Position numbers and translations under genes: made by a program. Source: a phage. From it: a DNA stretch of 60,068 nt. Position 1 is the stretch's first letter, and each line of letters starts with the position of its first letter. Positions 18,090-57,731 of this stretch are shown here, piece after piece. Where the stretch lies: sequence record PZ445425.1, one strand, 5' to 3'. Below the pieces are notes generated by a model. It ran no database searches. It was not told where the DNA came from and saw only the letters and a program-made list of their open reading frames with translations.

Positions 18090-21000
18090 ATGGCAACTCG
18101 TTTACGTGGTACTTTAGTTGATGGTTTAAATAAACCAATTGTCAACGCTACAGTTGCGCTTTTAGCGAAAGGGAATAGCTTATTGGTATTGTCCGGTAGT
18201 GAAGCTATCTTTAAAACAAGCGCAACCGGAACATATGATATTACCGTCCAAACAGGCTATTACAAGGTTATTATCGGTCCACAAGGTAGCGAGCCTTATA
18301 AAGCTGGTGAAATTGCTATTTACGCGGACAGTAAAGAAGGTACGCTGAATAACTATTTAACTTCCTGGGCGCCAGAAGAGTTAACTCCAGAAGTTATTGC
18401 ACAGGTTAAAGATTTAGTTTCACAAGCTGAGACAGCTAAGAATGCTTCAGCTTCGTCAGCTACTAAATCCGAGCAGGAGCGAGTTAAAGCAGAAGCTGCT
18501 GCTAAAAAGGCGGAAGACACTGCTAATGGTATGAAGGCGTCTATTGGTTTAACAAATAACCCTCGAGATTGTCCAGATATCTCCGGCAATCCTTCTTCCT
18601 TTTTAGGCTTTCTACGAATTATGGAAAGTGCAATTGGCTGGCCTTCTGTAGCTTCAGGTGAGCGTTATTTATCCGGTTTTATTTGCCCAACTTTAGGGAG
18701 CGATCCAACATTCACTGGGCTATTTATAGGGTATCTTACTGGTAGCACTTATACTTATAAATGGAACCCATCTAGCGGACCTTTGTGGTATAAACATATC
18801 AAGTCCTCGGAAATAGATAGATATAGTCAATTATCCGATTCCACTGCTATTTATAATGCATCAAAGAGCGCTAGCCTTGTCATAAAAGATACTAAAACTT
18901 GGGGAGCTTGGGACAATCAAACTTCCAAATATATACCTCTTGCAATAGCTCAGGGTGGTACAGGAGGAGTTACTGACGCGGATGCTCGTACTAACCTAGG
19001 ATTAGGGCGGAGTAGTTCACCCACATTTGGTCATTTAAATCTTCTTGTTGAAAGTGATTCAGCACTAGCTTCATCAGGAATGATTAATCAGTATTTACGT
19101 AATACTAATGGGACACAGAGGGCTCGTAGCAGAATTTATTCTGAAATAAGAGGCGACAATAAAGCGTGGTTAACACTTCATCTCCAATCGGATGCCGCGA
19201 CAAATAAATATGCCGGTTTAAGTATTGATGGTAACTTCCAGATTAATGGAAGCTTTATCGGTAGTGCTTTGAGCCTTACCGATGTTGCTACCTCTAAAGT
19301 AAATCTGCAAATTAATAGGTTTGTTCAGAACACTGGTGAAACTGATGTGGTTAACCATGCAGCGACAGCTCAAATTTTTATCACTGATAATAAAAATTGG
19401 GGGGCTTACGATAAAGAATTAAAACGACATATTCCGTTACCCGTTTCACAGGGTGGAACTGGAGCGGTTACTATTGGTGACGCTAAGACAAATTTACAAA
19501 TACCTTCTGTTGGTGCTGGAGACTGGTTGGAGATTGCTGCTCCTTCTGGCGTTGAAGCGGGGAAATATTATCCAATTGTAATCAAAGCTCAATATGCCTC
19601 TTTATATGCTTCTGGTTTCTTTATAGATATACAAACTAGAAGCTCTAGCGGTTCGGATCCTATGAACTGTTGTACATTTAACGGATTCATACGAACAGGT
19701 GGTTGGTCGGATAGGAAAGACGCTGGCTATGGATACTATAACCGATATGGTTCTAATGAGCTTGCTTTAAAATGCATATTGGTATCCGCTAAGAATGCTG
19801 AAGACAATATAGCTGTATATGTAGAAGGTAGAGCATTCCCAGTGAAAATGCGCATACCTCAATTTTGCACAGCTACGGCAGTCGCTTCAGCTTCTACATA
19901 TGGTGAAGTGACATTTGCTTGGGGTACATCCAATCCTGCTACAGATTCAGTTGGGGTAAATACCCTATTTGATTTCTCTTTAAATAGAGTTGGTTTTTAT
20001 CAAGCATCTACTGTAGGAAACTATTATATTGGTAACGGCCAACGTATAGTTCTTTCTAATGGGATGTCCGTAGGGGATGAATTAAGCTTAACCACACCTA
20101 AGATTACTTTCAGTGGCACAGTAGCAGCGGGTAACGGTTTTATTGCGGATGGGACGTCTGTATCCAATGCTACTTTTTATAGTCGTTATCGTGTCGGTGA
20201 TACTATTTACGGTGCGGAGTTCCGAGCTAGTGAGAATGCAGCTCAGGTTATTGTTAGAGATCCGACAGGAACTAACCATCAATTCTTCAACTTTAATCTT
20301 AACGGAAGCTTCAGTCCGCCAAACGGATTATTGTCTTCTACTGGTGTGGATTGGAACAGTCAAATTAATACCGTCAATAAGTTCTATGGAATTGCTGGAC
20401 AAGTTAACACACCAGAAAATAATGTGGTTTATGGTGGTATCCATGTAGGATTTAGCGGAAACTATGCCTTTCAGATATGCGGAAGAAATGGTAAATCATT
20501 CTTTAGAACAGTTGAGGCTGGACAAGAAGGGCAATGGAATAGGCTCCTTGTCAAAAACGACTATGGTGTAGGTTCTGTTGCCGAAAATCTGCCGAACGAC
20601 GCGTCTAGCGGTTTTTATTCGGACTCCAAAGCAATTTCTTGGGCTCCTGGTAGTGGAGCGGGCTTTCAGTCGTCCTATGATGCAAACAGAATATGGCAAT
20701 TTTGGTTAAACCAACAATCGCAAGCTCTTTTTCGTTATAACGATAGCGGTAACGCGCAAGCGTCTAAGACAGACAGACCTTGGACAACGCTTCAAGCTGC
20801 TGGTACATCTGATATTAATTTCAAGCGTGTGCACGGTGAAATGGACACAGATGTTGCGTTAGATAATATTAGCAAGCTTGAATTTGTTTATTTCAACTAC
20901 TTGTCCGATGGTCCGGAGCGTGACATTCGCAGAGGTATCATAGCGCAACAGGCCCAGGAAGTTGATCCTGAATATGTACATAGTGCTGAAACATCCGGAA

Positions 21001-21170
21001 AAATGACTTTGGATTCTAACCCATTGTTATTGGATGCATTAGCTGCAATACAATCCCTCAAGAAAAAGGATCAAGATAATAAAGACCGTATTAGTAAACT
21101 TGAGACTGAAGTCGAGGAACTTAAGACGTTAGTTGCTACGCTTGTTAATAAAGAGCAACCATTACCATAA
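18090..21170 (+). CDS. tail fibre with C-terminal intramolecular chaperone domain
   Basis: Start set to ATG 18090 (RBS GGGAGA); C-terminal region and final coiled-coil resemble self-cleaving chaperone domains of fibres and tailspikes. Confidence 0.7.
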   Translation: MATRLRGTLVDGLNKPIVNATVALLAKGNSLLVLSGSEAIFKTSATGTYDITVQTGYYKVIIGPQGSEPYKAGEIAIYADSKEGTLNNYLTSWAPEELTPEVIAQVKDLVSQAETAKNASASSATKSEQERVKAEAAAKKAEDTANGMKASIGLTNNPRDCPDISGNPSSFLGFLRIMESAIGWPSVASGERYLSGFICPTLGSDPTFTGLFIGYLTGSTYTYKWNPSSGPLWYKHIKSSEIDRYSQLSDSTAIYNASKSASLVIKDTKTWGAWDNQTSKYIPLAIAQGGTGGVTDADARTNLGLGRSSSPTFGHLNLLVESDSALASSGMINQYLRNTNGTQRARSRIYSEIRGDNKAWLTLHLQSDAATNKYAGLSIDGNFQINGSFIGSALSLTDVATSKVNLQINRFVQNTGETDVVNHAATAQIFITDNKNWGAYDKELKRHIPLPVSQGGTGAVTIGDAKTNLQIPSVGAGDWLEIAAPSGVEAGKYYPIVIKAQYASLYASGFFIDIQTRSSSGSDPMNCCTFNGFIRTGGWSDRKDAGYGYYNRYGSNELALKCILVSAKNAEDNIAVYVEGRAFPVKMRIPQFCTATAVASASTYGEVTFAWGTSNPATDSVGVNTLFDFSLNRVGFYQASTVGNYYIGNGQRIVLSNGMSVGDELSLTTPKITFSGTVAAGNGFIADGTSVSNATFYSRYRVGDTIYGAEFRASENAAQVIVRDPTGTNHQFFNFNLNGSFSPPNGLLSSTGVDWNSQINTVNKFYGIAGQVNTPENNVVYGGIHVGFSGNYAFQICGRNGKSFFRTVEAGQEGQWNRLLVKNDYGVGSVAENLPNDASSGFYSDSKAISWAPGSGAGFQSSYDANRIWQFWLNQQSQALFRYNDSGNAQASKTDRPWTTLQAAGTSDINFKRVHGEMDTDVALDNISKLEFVYFNYLSDGPERDIRRGIIAQQAQEVDPEYVHSAETSGKMTLDSNPLLLDALAAIQSLKKKDQDNKDRISKLETEVEELKTLVATLVNKEQPLP

Positions 21171-21341: not shown

Positions 21342-21590
21342 ATGTCTGACATGACTCTTTTACCTACTAATCTCGGTGGCGACGGTTTCGGTGGTGAAGC
21401 TGGTGCGGCTGGTATCGGTGGCGCGATCGGTGGCTTAATTGGTTCCTGGATCGGTAATGGTTGGGGTGGCAATGGTGGTTGGGGTGGTCGCGGTAACTTC
21501 GCTGGTCCGGTGGAAGTGCAAGCTTCTGTTGATACCAACGCAATTCTGCAAGCTATCAACAACGGTACTCTTCAGACCATTCAGGGGTAG
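21342..21590 (+). CDS. glycine-rich protein ending at in-frame TAG
   Basis: Start ATG 21342 (RBS GGAG); GGxGG-rich sequence; stop TAG at 21588-21590 is followed by 153 further in-frame sense codons. Confidence 0.5.
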   Translation: MSDMTLLPTNLGGDGFGGEAGAAGIGGAIGGLIGSWIGNGWGGNGGWGGRGNFAGPVEVQASVDTNAILQAINNGTLQTIQG

Positions 21591-22049
21591 AACGGTACTA
21601 ACCTGACTGTTGAGCGCTCCGCTGCTTCTACCTATAACGGTATTACTCAGCAGAACACTCAGAACCTACTGGCTTCCGTTCAGGGCTTTGCTGGTCTGAA
21701 CACGCAAATCCAGGGCGGCACCAGCCAAGTGCTCGCGGCTCTGTGTAACAACGAAGCAGCTAACATTACCCGCTCCTTCCAGGCTCAGTTAGAAGCTCAG
21801 AAGTGTTGCTGCGAAACCAACCTGAACATCGAGCGTCAAGCAGAAGCTACTCGTGCTCTCCTGCGCGATCAGCACGCACAAGCGCAAGCTGTTCTGATCT
21901 GTGACCTGAAGTCCCAGTTGCAGGAAGCTCGCTTTGCAAACTCTCAGTTGGCGCAGACGGCTGGCCTTACCTGTAAAATCAATCAGGTTGAGCAGTTAGT
22001 TAACTTTAAACTGCCAACTCCTCCGACTCCTCCGACTGGCTGCTGCTAA
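21591..22049 (+). CDS. in-frame continuation after TAG (possible readthrough product or separate GTG-start ORF)
   Basis: Same frame as 21342..21590 with no stop until 22047-22049; similar N/Q/T/G-rich composition; first canonical start is GTG at 21729. Confidence 0.35.
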   Translation, partial: NGTNLTVERSAASTYNGITQQNTQNLLASVQGFAGLNTQIQGGTSQVLAALCNNEAANITRSFQAQLEAQKCCCETNLNIERQAEATRALLRDQHAQAQAVLICDLKSQLQEARFANSQLAQTAGLTCKINQVEQLVNFKLPTPPTPPTGCC

Positions 22050-24507: not shown

Positions 24508-24801
24508 CTAGCCCCCAAAAGTACCCCTATGATCAAGGGTTCTAATGCGCTGCTCCAGCCAACGTGCGTTCTTTTCAAAATGTTTATTGGTACGCGCTGC
24601 TTTGCACGCATCAATAATACCTAACTCACATCCAAGCTGCGTTTGTCCCATCACGTAAGAATGAGTTAACATGCTGGATACAAGGTCTTCACATTGTAAC
24701 TTAATAGGATGGTCTTGGCATAGTTTCTTTGCTGCATCTTTTAAATCCACACCTTGGACACCAGGCGCTATCAGCAAAGTTACGAGTAATAAACGTTTCA
24801 T
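24508..24801 (-). CDS. secreted/periplasmic small protein
   Basis: 97 aa with N-terminal signal peptide and four Cys. Confidence 0.45.
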   Translation of the reverse strand: MKRLLLVTLLIAPGVQGVDLKDAAKKLCQDHPIKLQCEDLVSSMLTHSYVMGQTQLGCELGIIDACKAARTNKHFEKNARWLEQRIRTLDHRGTFGG

Positions 24802-24902
24802 TATGCTTTCCCTTTACGACATAAGGCTTGAAGTTCCAGAAGCGCATCAATGTCTTCCTGTGGAGTTACACCAACGTGAATTGGATATTTAGCGCGACAT
24901 TC

Positions 24903-25085
24903 TTAGCCAACTTCAACAGTGTGGTTAATGTAGCCGTAAACACATCCACCAATAACAGTGAAGATAAGCGCAACAATCATTGTAAGGTATTTACCTTGTT
25001 TGCGTTCTTCATTTTGTTTATTAAGCTGACGGTTAAGTTCCACCGCGTCGATTTTACCTTTGTTGTAATCGTCTACTAAGCTCAT
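24903..25085 (-). CDS. small membrane protein
   Basis: Start moved to ATG at 25085 (RBS AGGAG); one transmembrane helix. Confidence 0.4.
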   Translation of the reverse strand: MSLVDDYNKGKIDAVELNRQLNKQNEERKQGKYLTMIVALIFTVIGGCVYGYINHTVEVG

Positions 25086-31860: not shown

Positions 31861-32583
31861 TCAAACGTGTTTGCTGTAAGCGTTATCCATAAATTCAGTG
31901 TAACCCTTAGCACGGAGTTTACACGCCGGGCATTCCCCGCAACCGTATCCCCAGTCATGTAGAGTACGACGGACGCCGTTATAGCAAGTATGGGACTGCT
32001 CAATTACTGTGGTTAAGAAGCCAACCTTATCCGCCAGCTCAAACGTTTCTGCTTTATTTAAACGCATAAGCGGGGTAACGAAATGAATATCTGTTTCATA
32101 TCCAACGTTTAACGTAGCTTCAAGCAAGTCTACAAACTGCTGGCGGCAATCTGGATAACCGCTATAGTCTGTTTCACAAACGCCCGTAACCACATACCGA
32201 GCGCCAACTTTCTGTGCGTAGGCGTGCGCGGTAGTCAGGAAAAGAGCATTACGGTTTGGCACAAAGCTTGCTGGAAGGTTGTTGTGCTGTTCGTGATGTT
32301 CGTTAACATCACCTTCGTTCCCGATTAAAGCGCTATTGCCAATCTGTTTCAAAGCAGGTAATTCAAAGACAACAAATGGGACATCGTGCTCTTTACAAAT
32401 TTGATTAGCACAAGCCAGCTCAATGTTATGACGTTGACCGTATGCAAAACCAATAGCATAGACCTTATCATAGTTATTAAGTGCAAGACCTAAACAGGTC
32501 ACGCTGTCCTGGCCGCCAGACAGGACGACAACGGCGGAGTTATGATTTTTTACAGGGAATACCAGTTTATCTAATTTATTCAT
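31861..32583 (-). CDS. queC: 7-cyano-7-deazaguanine synthase
   Basis: PP-loop SGGQDS motif and C-terminal Cys cluster; start set to ATG 32583. Confidence 0.8.
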   Translation of the reverse strand: MNKLDKLVFPVKNHNSAVVVLSGGQDSVTCLGLALNNYDKVYAIGFAYGQRHNIELACANQICKEHDVPFVVFELPALKQIGNSALIGNEGDVNEHHEQHNNLPASFVPNRNALFLTTAHAYAQKVGARYVVTGVCETDYSGYPDCRQQFVDLLEATLNVGYETDIHFVTPLMRLNKAETFELADKVGFLTTVIEQSHTCYNGVRRTLHDWGYGCGECPACKLRAKGYTEFMDNAYSKHV

Positions 32584-45525: not shown

Positions 45526-47863
45526 CCTCTTCTCCTAAGTTTGCCATAATACCTTCAACATCTTGCGTAATGCGCCAAGCTGCGCCAGTGAATCCCAGTT
45601 TGATAGTCTCCTCCCGTGTTACCGGAACAAGCGCACCCATAGCAACCATCTCTTTGATCGTAGACTCAATTGCCGCGGACAATCCGTGGTGATAGTTTTT
45701 AAACGCGGACTTACTTGCAAGACGAGTAGTAATATCACCCCGCGTGATAATGCCTTCCTTACGCAGATCTACACGTTTAACTTTCACCCAATCTTTAGTT
45801 AGATAATTCACACAAACCTGGCACATAGTACGGATACGAGCTTCGTCATTAGTACCGATACCCCCACTATGCCATTCCTTCATAATGATATCCTGTCCAT
45901 GACGCACAAAGTCCAAGGCCCATTGAACATGATAGGTCTGCACAACCGGATTGATCCAGTTTTCTCCCACAGCTAACAGGGCGGATAGACGTAACACCTT
46001 CAGGTGAGCACGGTTCCAGGGCTGACGGATTGCTTCGTCTTTGGTTGCGTTAATATTACGGTCACATTCGTCGTTAAACTGATCACATAATGCTTCCGCA
46101 TCCGGACTAAACTGCACTTCAATACTTTGATGCTTTGCCATTGCGACTAAGGTGTGGTTAACAAGATGGCACACCATATCCCGCAAATGCTGATCCATTG
46201 TAGTCTGCTGGTTCTTGTTTAAAGGTGGTCGATCCCCTTCATAGCGGACAACATGGAAACGGGATAAGAAACCGTCCTCCATCATTTCACGGGTTAATGC
46301 TTCAAAGAACGTATCCGGTGTCGTTTCACCCATGATGCTATAGGCCACACCTTGTTGAGCTTCCGTATTATTAGCCTTATCAGAATAAGACATACCACCG
46401 ACAATAGACATCTGACCGGACTTTTGATAAACATCGGTAAGGTCGTTCTTGAAGCTTTGCATCGGTGAACCTGCTGGCGCCGTTGCCATCGCTTTAATAA
46501 TCTTACCAAACTCACCATTCAAGTTGATAAAAGATTGTTTGTCCGCAAAAGATTTACGCAGTGCGGAGCCGGAAGCACATCGGTCAAAAGATACAAAGCT
46601 ATGAATCTGCGGAAACGGTTCCTGAAGCTGGCTAACTATATTAGATAGCCCACTGTTCAACGTTTCTTTACCAACACCAGAACGAGCAATAAGGACGAAA
46701 TATCCATTAAGACCCGATTGCGGAATCTGCCAGACCTTCCCGCATACCCCAGCCATAAAGCCTAGCGCTGTCACAATAGAAATTTCTTTCACTGGTCGGA
46801 CGGAGGCTTTATAGATGTATTTCGCAAGCTCCCCAGCAAGCCCCGGCGGCCAGTCAATAGCGGTTGCATCAATAGATGTACTTTCTGCAACTACGGTCTG
46901 CCCCTGTGTTGTTTCAACAGTTACGGGCATTTCCACTACCTGTTGCATTGCACTGTGTGCCGCTTGCATACGGGCAGCATAATCCCGCGCCAGCGCCGCT
47001 ACGTTTTCCTGGGCAATGCGCTCACGCTCCATGCGACCGCGACACATACGCAAGCAACGGTCAATATGAACATTGTTCTTATTAGCCTTCTCACGTTTGC
47101 CCAGTGCGCTATAACGGAACAGACGACGACATTGCTCATTACTTTCCGTGTAAAATGCATACATAGAAATAAGGGCAAGATCTGCTTCAGACTGGGAAGG
47201 GAAACCCATTTCAACCCATTCACCATTGAATAACCGCGCATACTTATCGCCGTTATCCGCTTCAAGTGCACGCTGATGAATAGTTGCATCATCTTCTACC
47301 GGATCTTTTTCTACCAGTTCAATTTCATATGTCTTGCGCTGAAGATCAATTTCATTCACAAGCATAGTAAGGTAATGATCACGTTCTGCAACTGGTTTGT
47401 TATAAACAGGATTGCCCGTGCAAATAATAAAACGCTCCTGACTATAAACCTCGACACCATCACGTCGACGACCTTTACCGATGTTCCCTCTTAACCACAG
47501 GTGGACGCCCAAGCCTGAGCGACTTACTTCGGTGTAAGTATCGAACGCGGTCATGATCTGTTCGAAGCGGCGCAACTGTTCTGGCGTCGTGTGCTTCTTG
47601 GGATCCGGTTCGTTGGTTGCGTTCTTCACATCCAGGTCGATGCAGGTGAAAGGGTCTTGCGCAGTAAGCACGAAGCCTATATAAGGTTTGTTGAAATGCG
47701 CGGCGCAACCTTTGGCAGCTTCAAACGTCATTAGCATATCCGGATCGGTAACGTCCGCCGCCATAAGACGTCCGATATCGTTGTCCCATACGAGCGGCTT
47801 TTTATCCGCATCGGCGACCGCCCATTGTGGGAAAGCTTTAATTTCAGCGGGAAATAGTTCCAT
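45521..47863 (-). CDS. primase-polymerase / helicase-like replication protein
   Basis: 780 aa; N-terminal Prim-Pol-like region with IDLD motif, central P-loop-like GVGKET. Confidence 0.5.
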   Translation of the reverse strand: MELFPAEIKAFPQWAVADADKKPLVWDNDIGRLMAADVTDPDMLMTFEAAKGCAAHFNKPYIGFVLTAQDPFTCIDLDVKNATNEPDPKKHTTPEQLRRFEQIMTAFDTYTEVSRSGLGVHLWLRGNIGKGRRRDGVEVYSQERFIICTGNPVYNKPVAERDHYLTMLVNEIDLQRKTYEIELVEKDPVEDDATIHQRALEADNGDKYARLFNGEWVEMGFPSQSEADLALISMYAFYTESNEQCRRLFRYSALGKREKANKNNVHIDRCLRMCRGRMERERIAQENVAALARDYAARMQAAHSAMQQVVEMPVTVETTQGQTVVAESTSIDATAIDWPPGLAGELAKYIYKASVRPVKEISIVTALGFMAGVCGKVWQIPQSGLNGYFVLIARSGVGKETLNSGLSNIVSQLQEPFPQIHSFVSFDRCASGSALRKSFADKQSFINLNGEFGKIIKAMATAPAGSPMQSFKNDLTDVYQKSGQMSIVGGMSYSDKANNTEAQQGVAYSIMGETTPDTFFEALTREMMEDGFLSRFHVVRYEGDRPPLNKNQQTTMDQHLRDMVCHLVNHTLVAMAKHQSIEVQFSPDAEALCDQFNDECDRNINATKDEAIRQPWNRAHLKVLRLSALLAVGENWINPVVQTYHVQWALDFVRHGQDIIMKEWHSGGIGTNDEARIRTMCQVCVNYLTKDWVKVKRVDLRKEGIITRGDITTRLASKSAFKNYHHGLSAAIESTIKEMVAMGALVPVTREETIKLGFTGAAWRITQDVEGIMANLGEEE

Positions 47864-54205: not shown

Positions 54206-54430
54206 ATGCGATTACTTATGGTTATTGGCGTTATAGTTGCCGCTTTCGTCATATTTGCAATTGTAGACTTTAAAGAAATGGAGCGGCAAAATTGCCAACG
54301 CACTGGTAACAGCCGTGAGGATATCATTTGGCAATATATTTACGATGCAAAAGGTAATGTTATGTCAATGTATCCTCAGGTTATTACTGAGTATGAATAT
54401 AAATGCAATGACCGTAACAGGTGGAGATAA
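54206..54430 (+). CDS. small membrane protein
   Basis: 74 aa with N-terminal transmembrane helix. Confidence 0.45.
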   Translation: MRLLMVIGVIVAAFVIFAIVDFKEMERQNCQRTGNSREDIIWQYIYDAKGNVMSMYPQVITEYEYKCNDRNRWR

Positions 54431-54432
54431 TA

Positions 54433-54540
54433 ATGGAAGTTACTGAAGCTGCTAAACGCATGGTAAAATTCTATGTCGGTTCTGATGCACCTTTAATTCG
54501 CGCTTTTGGTCAGGAACTTTATGTTTTCCAGGGCGATTGA
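54433..54540 (+). CDS. small ORF ending at in-frame TGA
   Basis: 35 codons; stop TGA is immediately followed by GAGGAGG and 124 further in-frame sense codons. Confidence 0.3.
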   Translation: MEVTEAAKRMVKFYVGSDAPLIRAFGQELYVFQGD

Positions 54541-54912
54541 GAGGAGGCTGAAGAAATTGCTCAGGCAATCCTCGATCTGCAAGCAAAAGCGGATCGTGCG
54601 GAAGCCCTTGAAGCCGAATGGCGTGCTCAGGAAGAACGTGCCGAAAATGCTGAAACTAACCTTGTCGACATGCGTGCTGCTGAGCACGCTCTATCTGATT
54701 CTTATATTCGTTTGCGTCAAATTGTTGGTGCAATGAATCCGCCTGGTGTGAGCAGCGAAGAGGTGTGGGCGCATACCGAGAAGAAGGCTCAAGAGTTGCG
54801 TGATCGCTGCGAAGCTCTGGAAGCTATAGCAAAGGACTTCTTGCGTCGTAATAAATATGGTCCTTTGTTCTATCGTGATTTGTATAACCGTTTTAAGGAG
54901 ATTGTGAAATGA
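54541..54912 (+). CDS. acidic coiled-coil protein (start uncertain: ATT 54556, ATG 54670, or readthrough)
   Basis: Frame open from 54541; coiled-coil-like EEAEE...AEALEAEWRAQEERAE sequence continues across ATG 54670; stop overlaps next start (ATGA). Confidence 0.4.
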   Translation, partial: EEAEEIAQAILDLQAKADRAEALEAEWRAQEERAENAETNLVDMRAAEHALSDSYIRLRQIVGAMNPPGVSSEEVWAHTEKKAQELRDRCEALEAIAKDFLRRNKYGPLFYRDLYNRFKEIVK

Positions 54913-55245: not shown

Positions 55246-55638
55246 ATGCGATTAGTCGTCACCGGAGGTCGAGATTTTAAGCATGTGGAGTATATTTATG
55301 CTCAATTGGATAAGCTGCATATGCAAAGAAGGATAACCACACTTCGCCACGGTGACGCTGACGGTGTTGACCGGATTTGCGCACATTGGGCGGAGCGCAA
55401 CGGTATTAAGACAGAAGCGTTCCCTGCCCCGTGGGACAATCTTTCCTTACCAAATACCAAGATACGGTATAACGCCAAGGGTGCTTATAATGCACAAGCT
55501 GGCGCTTACCGCAATCAATTAATGCTGGATACCGATCCTAAACCGGATCACGCTATTGTGTTTCCTGGCGGAGCTGGTACTATGGATATGTACAGACGGA
55601 TTAAAGCATCCGGTATTCCTTACACTTTAGCGGAGTAA
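55246..55638 (+). CDS. Rossmann-like protein, possibly SLOG/DUF2493-like
   Basis: N-terminal VVTGGRDF Gly-rich loop and GDADGVD motif; weak assignment. Confidence 0.3.
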   Translation: MRLVVTGGRDFKHVEYIYAQLDKLHMQRRITTLRHGDADGVDRICAHWAERNGIKTEAFPAPWDNLSLPNTKIRYNAKGAYNAQAGAYRNQLMLDTDPKPDHAIVFPGGAGTMDMYRRIKASGIPYTLAE

Positions 55639-56601: not shown

Positions 56602-56787
56602 ATGACCAAACTATACGCCGGATTGTTTTTATTTGCGACGTTAATGTTCGCTGGACTTTATACCTATACAGTAGTCGAACAACCTTCCACGGTTATCCGA
56701 ATCTTTGCAAGTACAGGGCTTTGCATCTGTCTTATTCTATTTGTTTTATGCATTGTTATTATCCAAGACCAAAGGAAAGTTAAATGA
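56602..56787 (+). CDS. small membrane protein
   Basis: 61 aa with two hydrophobic helices; start codon follows a hairpin gtgtaccc...gggtacac. Confidence 0.45.
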   Translation: MTKLYAGLFLFATLMFAGLYTYTVVEQPSTVIRIFASTGLCICLILFVLCIVIIQDQRKVK

Positions 56788-57254
56788 CTGAAGAATGGAA
56801 AAGAATACCTTTATTTCCAAAGTATGAGGTTTCTACTTTAGGTAGAGTTAGGAGGGCTAACAACCACAAAATATTGACAGGCTGCATATTAGATGGTCGT
56901 AGACGTTATACTTTGCGTCACAATGGTAAGAAATACGGTGTTGATGCTGCAAGATTGATGTGTTACGCATTTCGTGGTCTTGTCGACGGTTATGAGAAAC
57001 TAGATGCACGACATCTTGATGGCAATCCTTTGAATAATGTATTATCTAACGTAGATTGGGGTACACGTAAGGATAACATGGTGGACATGGTTCATCATGG
57101 TAACGCTTGTCATTCGTTTACAAAGGAAGAAGTTCTAAGTATCCGGCAACGAGCAGATGCCGGGGAAAGTCAACACGCTATAGCAAGAAGTATTGGCAGA
57201 AGCGTATCCGTTGTTAACTGTATTGTATTAAGAAAGACTTATAACGAATATTAA
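56784..57254 (+). CDS. HNH homing endonuclease
   Basis: NUMOD4-like N-terminus (WKRIPLFPKYEVSTLGRV), HNH core HLDGNPLNN and C-terminal HTH-like segment. Confidence 0.7.
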   Translation: MTEEWKRIPLFPKYEVSTLGRVRRANNHKILTGCILDGRRRYTLRHNGKKYGVDAARLMCYAFRGLVDGYEKLDARHLDGNPLNNVLSNVDWGTRKDNMVDMVHHGNACHSFTKEEVLSIRQRADAGESQHAIARSIGRSVSVVNCIVLRKTYNEY

Positions 57255-57266
57255 TGGGGGTGGGTT

Positions 57267-57731
57267 ATCACTACTATTGCGTTCGATGGAAAAGTATTAG
57301 CTGCGGACCGTGGAGTTATGCGCGGGGAAGCTGTGACTGCTTATAAGAAAGTTCATAGCGTAAATGGACATCGTGGACGGTTTTTACTTGGCTTGTGCGG
57401 TTTGACGGCATTTACCGATCAGGTGTTGCGTTATTTTAATAGCGCGGAACCTGTTAAGTTCCCTGATATTAAACTTTACAGTAAAGATGATGATTACGGG
57501 CAAACTTGCGGTCTTGCTGTCACTCCGGAAGGTACTTGCCATTTTATTTATAATGATGGTACTTTGAGCGAGCCCATGCTGGATGGATGGGGATCTGAGG
57601 GTAGCGGTTGTGTGTTTGCCGCTGGTGCATTAGCCGCTGGTGCAAGCGCAAGCGAAGCTATTGAGCTGGCAATTAAACACACCACATGCGCATTCCTGGG
57701 AGTTGATACAATATCATTTGAGGGTTTTTAA
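57267..57731 (+). CDS. HslV/proteasome-beta-like Ntn-hydrolase peptidase, apparent non-AUG start
   Basis: Frame open from 57255; TTIAFDGKVLAAD, YKKV and GSEGSG segments align with HslV; no in-frame ATG/GTG/TTG precedes the catalytic Thr; ATC at 57267 follows a G-rich SD-like tract. Confidence 0.5.
   Translation: MTTIAFDGKVLAADRGVMRGEAVTAYKKVHSVNGHRGRFLLGLCGLTAFTDQVLRYFNSAEPVKFPDIKLYSKDDDYGQTCGLAVTPEGTCHFIYNDGTLSEPMLDGWGSEGSGCVFAAGALAAGASASEAIELAIKHTTCAFLGVDTISFEGF

What the first reader, a model, noticed from the sequence alone, without database searches (positions are those of the whole stretch)
54433..54912. Second frame split by one stop codon (TGA), with a strong SD and only an AUU nearby
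ORF 54433..54540 ends with TGA, directly followed by GAGGAGG, and the frame stays open for 124 codons to 54912, encoding a coiled-coil-like acidic protein. The first ATG (54670) falls in the middle of that helix-like sequence with no SD, whereas ATT at 54556 sits 8 nt after GAGGAGG. Together with the HslV-like gene this hints that some genes here use AUU/AUC initiation or stop-codon readthrough (TGA is the leakiest stop).
Basis: seen in the sequence. Interest (0 to 1): 0.5.

Follow-up and report, generated by a model that had tools for sequence, protein, structure and literature searches.

The report
Premature stop mutation in phage gene
The "split frame" is one small phage gene of unknown function, intact in every related phage examined, that here carries a single C-to-T change turning an arginine codon into a stop; it is an ordinary nonsense mutation, not a special start or recoding signal.

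Summary
ORF 54433..54540 ends in TGA, GAGGAGG follows, the frame stays open to 54912, the first in-frame ATG is 54670, and ATT 54556 lies 8 nt after GAGGAGG.

The window is a complete Seuratvirus (Queuovirinae) genome. In Skure, SLUR75, KS_W4 and SA126VB the same 480 nt form one annotated 159-aa CDS. The window's TGA aligns with an Arg codon in 10 of 10 relatives that share this N-terminal module (CGA x7, AGA x2, CGC x1), and with TGT (Cys) in one further contig.

The supposed Shine-Dalgarno sequence is simply the Glu-Glu-Ala codons; it reads GAAGAAG in three relatives. The ATT is an Ile codon that is Val or Leu elsewhere. TGA is the normal stop of 17 other genes here. There is no tRNA, no downstream RNA structure and no Rfam hit.

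Best reading: a recent opal nonsense allele, or possibly a base-call error, in a dispensable, highly mosaic accessory gene. Any full-length product would come from passive UGA leak.

The same genome has two more single-base premature stops: a TAG shared with phage Skure, and a TAA. An HNH endonuclease insertion also removed the ATG of the HslV-like gene. These are lesions, not a shared decoding trait. Interest is low.

The parts
54433..54912 (+). Whole gene: ortholog of the 159-aa hypothetical protein of Skure, SLUR75, KS_W4 and SA126VB (Seurat gp78 family, VOG0753). Here it is interrupted at codon 36.
   Evidence: Gap-free alignment to single annotated 480-nt CDSs. tblastn gives 98.7% identity to SLUR75 with one in-frame stop.
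54420..54426 (+). GGTGGAG, the likely real ribosome-binding site of the gene, 6 nt before ATG 54433. The upstream gene ends with TAA at 54428-54430.
   Evidence: Sequence. An RBS is annotated at the equivalent place in phage Seurat.
54433..54540 (+). N-terminal fragment ORF of 35 codons plus the premature TGA. It encodes the small alpha/beta N-terminal module.
   Evidence: The AlphaFold2 model of the KS_W4 ortholog has helix 5-10 and strands 11-13, 20-24 and 27-30, with the long helix starting at residue 36.
54538..54540 (+). Premature opal codon TGA. A C-to-T change at 54538 relative to CGA (Arg36).
   Evidence: At least 30 nt on each side are identical to SLUR75 and slur01.
54541..54547 (+). 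GAGGAGG: codons Glu37 and Glu38 plus the first base of Ala39. It looks like a Shine-Dalgarno sequence but is not conserved as one.
   Evidence: It reads GAGGAAG or GAAGAAG in relatives while the amino acids stay the same. Genome-wide count equals chance.
54556..54558 (+). TTG at 54557-54559 overlaps it in the +1 frame.
   Evidence: It is GTC, GTT or CTT in KS_W4, WildeMaa, PLYYY01, ECP2304, phiG7 and STP-SP5. The +1-frame ORF is broken in slur01 and L017.
54541..54912 (+). Downstream 123 codons plus the native stop. They encode a long helical hairpin and the family's invariant C-terminal module (LEA.AKDFLRRN..GPLFYRDLYNRFKEI). There is one non-synonymous difference (L49M) and no synonymous difference from SLUR75.
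54670..54912 (+). The first ORF with a canonical start after the stop (80 aa, ATG). No Shine-Dalgarno sequence lies upstream.
   Evidence: This exact product is not on record in public assemblies.

Best explanation
A single C-to-T transition (CGA Arg36 to TGA) has introduced a premature opal stop into an otherwise intact small accessory gene of a Seuratvirus. Translation starts normally at ATG 54433 and mostly terminates at 54538-54540, releasing a 35-residue N-terminal fragment. The remaining 123 codons, a helical hairpin plus the family's conserved C-terminal module, are then largely untranslated.

The GAGGAGG and ATT that follow are ordinary Glu-Glu-Ala and Ile codons, not an initiation site. 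The change is very recent, because no further decay has accumulated downstream. It is tolerated because the gene is dispensable or plastic: relatives carry versions of 63 to 193 aa with swapped N-terminal modules and internal deletions.

Shown: the substitution, its uniqueness among the relatives examined, the lack of conservation of the putative signals, and the normal use of TGA as a stop in this genome. Inferred: the translational outcome, namely mostly termination with at most percent-level Trp insertion by host tRNA-Trp competing with RF2.
For: Searches show one 480-nt CDS at the same position in four relatives. Searches show the only differences from SLUR75 are C-to-T at 54538 and one L/M codon.

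Searches show Arg36 in 10 of 10 relatives with three synonymous codons. They also show synonymous drift of 'GAGGAGG' and replacement of ATT. Variable sites fall 32, 14 and 5 at codon positions 3, 1 and 2, so both halves evolve as one coding frame.

Searches give 25 protein clusters, none of them broken at this position; the 19 that carry this N-terminal module have R or C there. One search shows 17 genes ending in TGA. One search finds no tRNA. Searches find no significant RNA structure (z = -1.24) and no Rfam match.

Searches show family lengths of 63 to 193 aa, consistent with dispensability.

Searches show that nonsense alleles occur elsewhere in this genome. One of them, TAG at 21588, is shared with the independently deposited phage Skure. 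So such alleles do circulate in this group.
Against: Sequence alone cannot separate a real mutation from a consensus base-call error, and the TGA allele was found nowhere else. The total absence of downstream decay also fits continued use of the downstream part. The strong SD-like GAGGAGG 8 nt before ATT is, by coincidence or not, well placed for weak reinitiation after termination. UGA is the leakiest stop (PMC5289835).
Confidence: 0.85

Rival explanations
1. Consensus or assembly error, or another non-biological alteration. The phage really has CGA at 54538 and the gene is intact.
For: The allele is a singleton. It is absent from 33 related phage records, from IMG/VR and from JGI metagenomes, and the exact products are not on record. 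It is an isolated single-base change in a perfectly conserved context. The genome holds three such isolated stops, one each of TGA, TAG and TAA.
Against: One of the three stops, TAG 21588, is also present in the independently deposited Skure genome, with 5 synonymous differences around it. So the assembly is not simply error-ridden. The three changes are of different types (C>T, C>T, C>A). They do not share the GA/GGC context which, from my memory of work on CAjan (not checked here), marks 7-deazaguanine modification sites; this context argument is my inspection.
Confidence: 0.2
2. Passive UGA readthrough. Host Trp-tRNA occasionally decodes UGA36, giving a low level of full-length R36W protein that is enough for function, so the allele is effectively a knock-down rather than a knock-out.
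For: UGA readthrough in E. coli comes from competition between Trp-tRNA-Trp and RF2 and is readily measurable (PMC10570021). [quoted passage not shown] Position 36 tolerates Arg and Cys and sits at a domain boundary, the first residue of the long helix. There is no downstream decay.
Against: There is no stimulatory structure or context signal. The lack of decay is equally explained by the mutation being recent. No data on expression level or required dose exist.
Confidence: 0.15
3. Termination-reinitiation at ATT 54556, using GAGGAGG as Shine-Dalgarno. This would produce a 118-residue C-terminal protein beginning at codon 42, so the gene now works as two polypeptides.
For: GAGGAGG sits 8 nt upstream of ATT, and the terminating ribosome is released 16 nt upstream. 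AUU supports initiation at about 1-2% of AUG in E. coli and is the native start of infC and pcnB (bioRxiv 10.1101/063800). The cut falls between two predicted structural units.
Against: Neither element is conserved as a signal, so any such use would be accidental. The canonical TTG at 54557, in the +1 frame, shares the same SD and should out-compete ATT; canonical starts give 10-100% of AUG. That would yield an unconserved out-of-frame peptide.
Confidence: 0.07
4. Independent initiation at ATG 54670, giving an 80-aa protein that keeps the conserved C-terminal module, like naturally short family members.
For: It is the first canonical in-frame start. Natural short forms exist, for example the 97-aa P0020, whose homology begins about 10 residues upstream of this Met, and the 63-aa KS_A8 form.
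Against: No Shine-Dalgarno sequence lies upstream. The Met is an internal helix residue conserved in full-length relatives.
Confidence: 0.05
5. Programmed recoding of UGA: selenocysteine insertion, an alternative genetic code, or evolved readthrough as in Q-beta A1.
For: The UGA aligns with Cys (TGT) in two homolog clusters, the classic selenoprotein signature. UGA is the codon used for all of these mechanisms.
Against: The nearest relatives have Arg, not Cys. No hairpin stands out and no Rfam family matches downstream. Seventeen genes terminate at TGA and only this one has it in frame. There is no suppressor tRNA. The stop is not conserved in any relative.
Confidence: 0.01

Closest known systems
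Opal (UGA) nonsense mutants of phage genes, such as classical T4 rII or lambda nonsense alleles, and pseudogenised accessory genes in phage genomes
   Same: A single-base change from a sense codon (CGA) to a stop inside an otherwise intact ORF. The flanks are unchanged, and the gene is non-core and variable among relatives.
   Different: This one was found in a deposited or assembled genome rather than selected in the laboratory. Its phenotype and suppressibility are unknown.
Seurat gp78 / VOG0753 family of hypothetical proteins (Seuratvirus early-region gene between the gp77 and gp79 homologs)
   Same: 98.7% identical to the SLUR75 member over all 159 positions. Same position in the gene order. 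Same invariant C-terminal module.
   Different: The window copy is interrupted at codon 36. The family has no Pfam domain, no solved or predicted structural relative and no known function.
AUU-initiated genes infC and pcnB of E. coli
   Same: An ATT at suitable spacing (8 nt) from a strong SD-like sequence.
   Different: In infC the AUU is conserved and used for autoregulation. Here ATT is an internal Ile codon that varies to Val or Leu, and the in-frame sequence upstream is homologous coding sequence.
Programmed UGA readthrough (Q-beta coat/A1 protein) and bacterial selenocysteine insertion (fdhF-type SECIS)
   Same: An in-frame UGA followed by a long open frame.
   Different: There is no conservation of the stop, no downstream stimulatory element and no SECIS-like hairpin. 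The relatives encode Arg.

Membership tests
Seurat gp78 / VOG0753 hypothetical-protein family | Full-length sequence homology and conserved C-terminal module (L129 E130 A133 F136 R139 G143 P144 F146 R148 L150 Y151 R153 F154 invariant) | tested here: met
   tblastn gives 98.7% identity over 159 positions. Alignment of 26 sequences.
Seurat gp78 / VOG0753 hypothetical-protein family | Same position in the gene order (after the 74-aa membrane-protein gene, overlapping the start of the 89-aa gene) | tested here: met
   Annotated neighbourhoods of Skure, SLUR75, Seurat, KS_W4 and SA126VB.
Seurat gp78 / VOG0753 hypothetical-protein family | Uninterrupted reading frame | tested here: not met
   TGA at codon 36.
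Simple nonsense allele | The stop differs by one base from a sense codon that is conserved in relatives, with flanks unchanged | tested here: met
   CGA to TGA. At least 30 nt identical on both sides. Arg in 10 of 10 relatives.
Simple nonsense allele | The allele is confirmed in the reads or in the phage stock | not testable with these tools
   No reads are available. The allele is absent from all collections searched.
Non-canonical AUU initiation (infC/pcnB type) | The AUU and its Shine-Dalgarno sequence are conserved as nucleotides among relatives | tested here: not met
   ATT becomes GTC, GTT or CTT. GAGGAGG becomes GAGGAAG or GAAGAAG.
Non-canonical AUU initiation (infC/pcnB type) | The protein starts at the AUU, with no homologous coding sequence upstream in frame | tested here: not met
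   Upstream codons 1-41 are homologous, in frame, in all relatives.
Non-canonical AUU initiation (infC/pcnB type) | Initiation at the AUU is observed experimentally | not testable with these tools
   Needs Ribo-seq or N-terminal proteomics.
Programmed stop-codon readthrough | The stop codon is conserved at the same position in relatives | tested here: not met
   None of the 10 relatives with this module and none of the 25 protein clusters has a break there.
Programmed stop-codon readthrough | A stimulatory downstream RNA structure or context | tested here: not met
   MFE z-score of -1.24, with 22 of 200 shuffles folding as well. No Rfam hit with E < 0.69.
Selenocysteine recoding | A SECIS hairpin immediately downstream of the UGA | tested here: not met
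   No significant structure and no Rfam match.
Selenocysteine recoding | Cys at the aligned position in homologs | tested here: inconclusive
   Cys (TGT) in 2 of 25 clusters, but Arg in all close relatives.
Alternative genetic code (UGA as a sense codon) | UGA is frequent in frame, is not used as a terminator, and a cognate tRNA is present | tested here: not met
   Seventeen genes end in TGA and one gene has it in frame. Zero tRNA genes.

The most novel reading that the evidence does not exclude
This phage lineage may tolerate, and even keep under selection, genes interrupted by stop codons. Three conserved genes in one genome carry TGA, TAG and TAA, and the TAG is shared with phage Skure with only synonymous differences around it. 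That could reflect translation past stops during infection, or fission of the genes into two working polypeptides. For the gene studied here, it would mean termination at UGA36 followed by reinitiation at AUU42 using the fortuitous GAGGAGG.
Probability: 0.04. Interest if true: 0.55.

Novelty: already known. Interest (0 to 1): 0.1.

Why it matters
It matters mainly for annotation. The locus should be recorded as one disrupted gene (a pseudogene or opal allele of the Seurat gp78 family). It should not be recorded as two genes, an ATT-initiated gene or a recoding site.

If the allele is real, it gives a natural knock-down or knock-out of an uncharacterised, strongly mosaic early gene. That could be used to test whether the gene is dispensable.

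Tried and rejected
1. Other occurrences of the TGA allele. I ran an exact 28-mer and degenerate patterns against IMG/VR and JGI metagenomes. Only the CGA allele of slur01 was found. Exact-product look-ups of the 35-aa and 80-aa ORFs found nothing on record.

2. Function of the protein. There is no Pfam match and only a weak PHROG of unknown function. A PDB profile search gave only coiled-coil noise. The AlphaFold2 model (pLDDT 77.6) has no significant Foldseek match in the PDB. In BFVD it matches only its own slur01 homolog.

3. Selenocysteine or readthrough elements. The RNA fold and the Rfam scan were both negative.

4. A phage suppressor tRNA. None is encoded.

5. An overlapping +1-frame gene starting at TTG 54557. 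That frame is interrupted in slur01 and L017, and its changes follow frame-0 synonymous sites.

6. Sequencing artefact from 7-deazaguanine modification. The three stop-creating changes are C>T, C>T and C>A (gene strand) and do not share one G-context, so no single systematic error explains them. This rests on my inspection and on modification motifs recalled from memory, not tested.

7. The idea that the three stops are non-biological. This is weakened by finding the TAG allele in Skure.

8. A look-up of the HNH protein to fetch closer relatives. It is not on record.

Full report
**1. What the sequence shows**

- ATG 54433 is preceded by GGTGGAG and by the TAA of the upstream gene.
- It opens a 35-codon ORF that ends with TGA at 54538-54540.
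- The next seven bases are GAGGAGG.
- The same frame then runs 123 more sense codons to TGA 54910-54912, which overlaps the ATG (54909) of the next gene.
- The first in-frame ATG, GTG or TTG after the stop is ATG 54670.
- ATT 54556 lies 8 nt after GAGGAGG.

**2. What the window is**

The window is a complete genome of about 60 kb from a Seuratvirus (Queuovirinae).
- It is 94-96% identical to slur01, CAjan, KS_A8, SLUR75 and other E. coli phages.
- It starts at the terminase large-subunit ATG.
- It is not itself in the phage collection searched.

**3. The locus in relatives**

In Skure, SLUR75, KS_W4 and SA126VB, one annotated 480-nt CDS (159 aa, "hypothetical protein", VOG0753) occupies exactly the interval that corresponds to 54433..54912.

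The nucleotide alignment is gap-free. It places the window's TGA opposite CGA. SLUR75 differs from the window at only two of 480 positions: the C/T at 54538 and one Leu/Met codon.

Six more relatives carry the same N-terminal module: slur01, WildeMaa, PLYYY01, ECP2304, phiG7 and STP-SP5. With them, position 36 is Arg in 10 of 10, encoded by CGA (7), AGA (2) and CGC (1). That is selection on the amino acid.

The protein database returned 25 clusters, none broken at this position. Of the 19 that carry this N-terminal module, 17 have Arg there and two have Cys. One Cys case was verified as TGT on a 60-kb Logan contig.

**4. The putative initiation signals are codons**

- GAGGAGG encodes Glu37, Glu38 and the first base of Ala39.
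- It is GAGGAAG in SA126VB, and GAAGAAG in ECP2304, phiG7 and STP-SP5, with the protein unchanged.
- ATT (Ile42) is GTC, GTT or CTT (Val or Leu) in six relatives.
- Across the five full-length genes, variable sites fall 32, 14 and 5 at codon positions 3, 1 and 2. Both halves show mainly synonymous change, so the whole 480 nt evolves as one frame.
- GAGGAGG occurs three times in the genome, as expected by chance.
- The TTG at 54557, which would share this SD, opens a +1 frame that is not conserved.

**5. No sign of recoding**

- TGA terminates 17 other genes of the window.
- ARAGORN finds no tRNA.
- The 111 nt around and after the stop fold no better than shuffles: z = -1.24, with 22 of 200 shuffles as good.
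- A permissive Rfam scan gives only noise.
- The TGA allele was not found in IMG/VR or JGI metagenomes.
- The exact truncated products are not on record.

**6. The protein**

There is no Pfam family, only a weak unknown-function PHROG, and no PDB sequence relative.

An AlphaFold2 model of the KS_W4 ortholog (pLDDT 77.6) shows three parts:
- a small helix-plus-three-strand N-terminal unit (residues 1-30);
- a long helical hairpin (helices 36-100 and 108-140);
- a short C-terminal helix.

It has no significant structural neighbour apart from its own slur01 homolog. The stop falls at the first residue of the long helix, which is a domain boundary.

The family is strikingly modular.
- There are three alternative N-terminal modules: the one seen here; a Cys-rich one in Seurat; and a third in KS_A8, where the frame is open for 63 aa although only 40 aa are annotated.
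- Internal deletions lie between ALEA-type repeats.
- Lengths range from 63 to 193 aa.
- All versions keep an invariant C-terminal module of about 30 residues.

This plasticity argues that most of the protein is dispensable or interchangeable.

**7. Most likely mechanism**

Shown: a C-to-T point change created an opal codon in an otherwise intact gene. It is unique among the relatives examined and recent, with no downstream decay.

Inferred: ribosomes starting at 54433 mostly terminate at 54540 and release a 35-residue peptide.

A small fraction may read through with Trp. In E. coli, UGA decoding is a competition between Trp-tRNA-Trp and RF2 (PMC10570021), and UGA is the leakiest stop (PMC5289835).

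Reinitiation at ATT 54556 is conceivable but weak. AUU gives about 1-2% of AUG (bioRxiv 10.1101/063800). It would also compete with the overlapping canonical TTG in the wrong frame.

The next gene has its own AAGGAG (54896-54901) ahead of ATG 54909, so it need not depend on coupling.

I cannot tell a real mutation from a consensus error without reads.

**8. Genome-wide context**

I translated all 87 SLUR75 CDSs and all 103 KS_A8 CDSs against the window. Three conserved genes carry an in-frame stop. Each is a single-base change from the nearest allele.
- TGA at 54538, the subject of this finding.
- TAG at 21588 (Gln83, CAG to TAG) in a 235-aa protein of unknown function. One relative annotates its homolog as a putative lateral tail fibre chaperone.
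- TAA at 24903-24905 on the minus strand (TAC to TAA relative to KS_A8) in a 94-aa protein.

Against SLUR75 the window has 1602 synonymous, 243 non-synonymous and 3 nonsense codon differences. KS_A8 has 1718, 251 and 0.

The TAG is also present at the same codon in phage Skure. There the gene is annotated as two CDSs, and it differs from the window copy by five synonymous changes only. All other relatives checked have CAG or a single CDS. Skure also has one further interrupted gene relative to KS_A8.

So nonsense alleles do circulate in accessory genes of this phage group. This makes a real mutation at 54538 more likely than an error. It also shows these are scattered lesions of all three stop types rather than one decoding trait.

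**9. The HslV-like gene**

In relatives this gene starts ATG ACC ACA ATT, with its ATG overlapping the stop of the preceding gene.

In the window, a 156-aa NUMOD4/HNH_3/HTH homing-endonuclease ORF (56784..57254) is inserted there and uses that ATG. The HslV-family ORF now begins ATC ACT ACT ATT at 57267, with no in-frame canonical start after the HNH stop. None of 33 related records covers the insert.

This lesion is caused by an insertion and is unrelated to the TGA at 54538. Whether ATC is used as a start is a separate question. It would recreate the Met-Thr-Thr N-terminus; that an HslV-type Ntn-hydrolase needs this N-terminus is my background knowledge, not tested here.

**10. Verdict**

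- The feature is an ordinary opal nonsense allele, or possibly a base-call error, in a mosaic accessory gene of unknown function.
- Novelty: already known kind. Interest: low.

Noticed in passing
window 21342..22049 (+), stop at 21588-21590: A conserved 235-aa Gly-rich protein (phrog_9288; its KurtStettler homolog is annotated 'putative lateral tail fiber chaperone') carries an in-frame TAG where relatives have CAG (Gln83). The same TAG is present in phage Skure, which annotates two CDSs. The two copies differ by 5 synonymous and 0 non-synonymous changes, so this is a shared, inherited amber allele in a gene that still looks constrained.
   Followed up: partly
window 25085..24801 (- strand), stop at 24905-24903: A 94-aa hypothetical protein (phrog_26834) is interrupted at codon 61 by TAA. 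KS_A8 has TAC (Tyr) and SLUR75 has AAC (Asn) at that codon. It is intact in SLUR75, KS_A8 and Skure.
   Followed up: partly
window 56784..57254 and 57267..57728 (+): A NUMOD4/HNH_3/HTH homing-endonuclease gene is inserted exactly at the start of the HslV-family peptidase gene and has taken over its ATG and ribosome-binding site. The peptidase ORF now begins ATC ACT ACT (relatives: ATG ACC ACA) with no canonical in-frame start. None of 33 related phage records covers the insert. The altered bases look like a diverged copy of the target site.
   Followed up: partly
window 54433..54912; L016 5524..5715 (KS_A8); L003 829..1368 (Seurat): The gp78 family is a mosaic. It has three alternative N-terminal modules, internal deletions between short ALEA-encoding repeats (lengths 63-193 aa), and an invariant C-terminal module of about 30 aa. 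In KS_A8 the annotated 40-aa CDS is probably too short: the frame is open from an upstream ATG for 63 aa.
   Followed up: partly
window 54557..54736 (+1 frame): A canonical TTG overlaps the ATT and lies 9 nt after GAGGAGG. It opens a 59-codon +1-frame ORF. That ORF is interrupted in slur01 and in contig L017, so it is probably not a gene.
   Followed up: yes
window 18090..21167 (+): The side tail fibre gene is only about 45-55% identical at protein level to that of SLUR75, while its neighbours are 99% identical. This looks like a host-range module exchange.
   Followed up: no
window 55246..55638 (+): A 130-aa protein matches Pfam YAcAr (YspA/cpYpsA-related SLOG family, E = 5e-19). Relatives annotate it inconsistently as 'GTP-binding domain', 'phosphoribosyl transferase' or 'DNA binding protein'.
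   Followed up: no
L018 45633..46001 (Skure, - strand): Skure carries an in-frame stop in its homolog of KS_A8 CDS 45736..46107 (123 aa, 96% identity). This is another interrupted accessory gene in the group.
   Followed up: no
window 31861..32583 (- strand): The QueC homolog ends 5 codons later than in SLUR75 and KS_A8, because its stop is displaced. This is a small C-terminal extension, not a disruption.
   Followed up: partly
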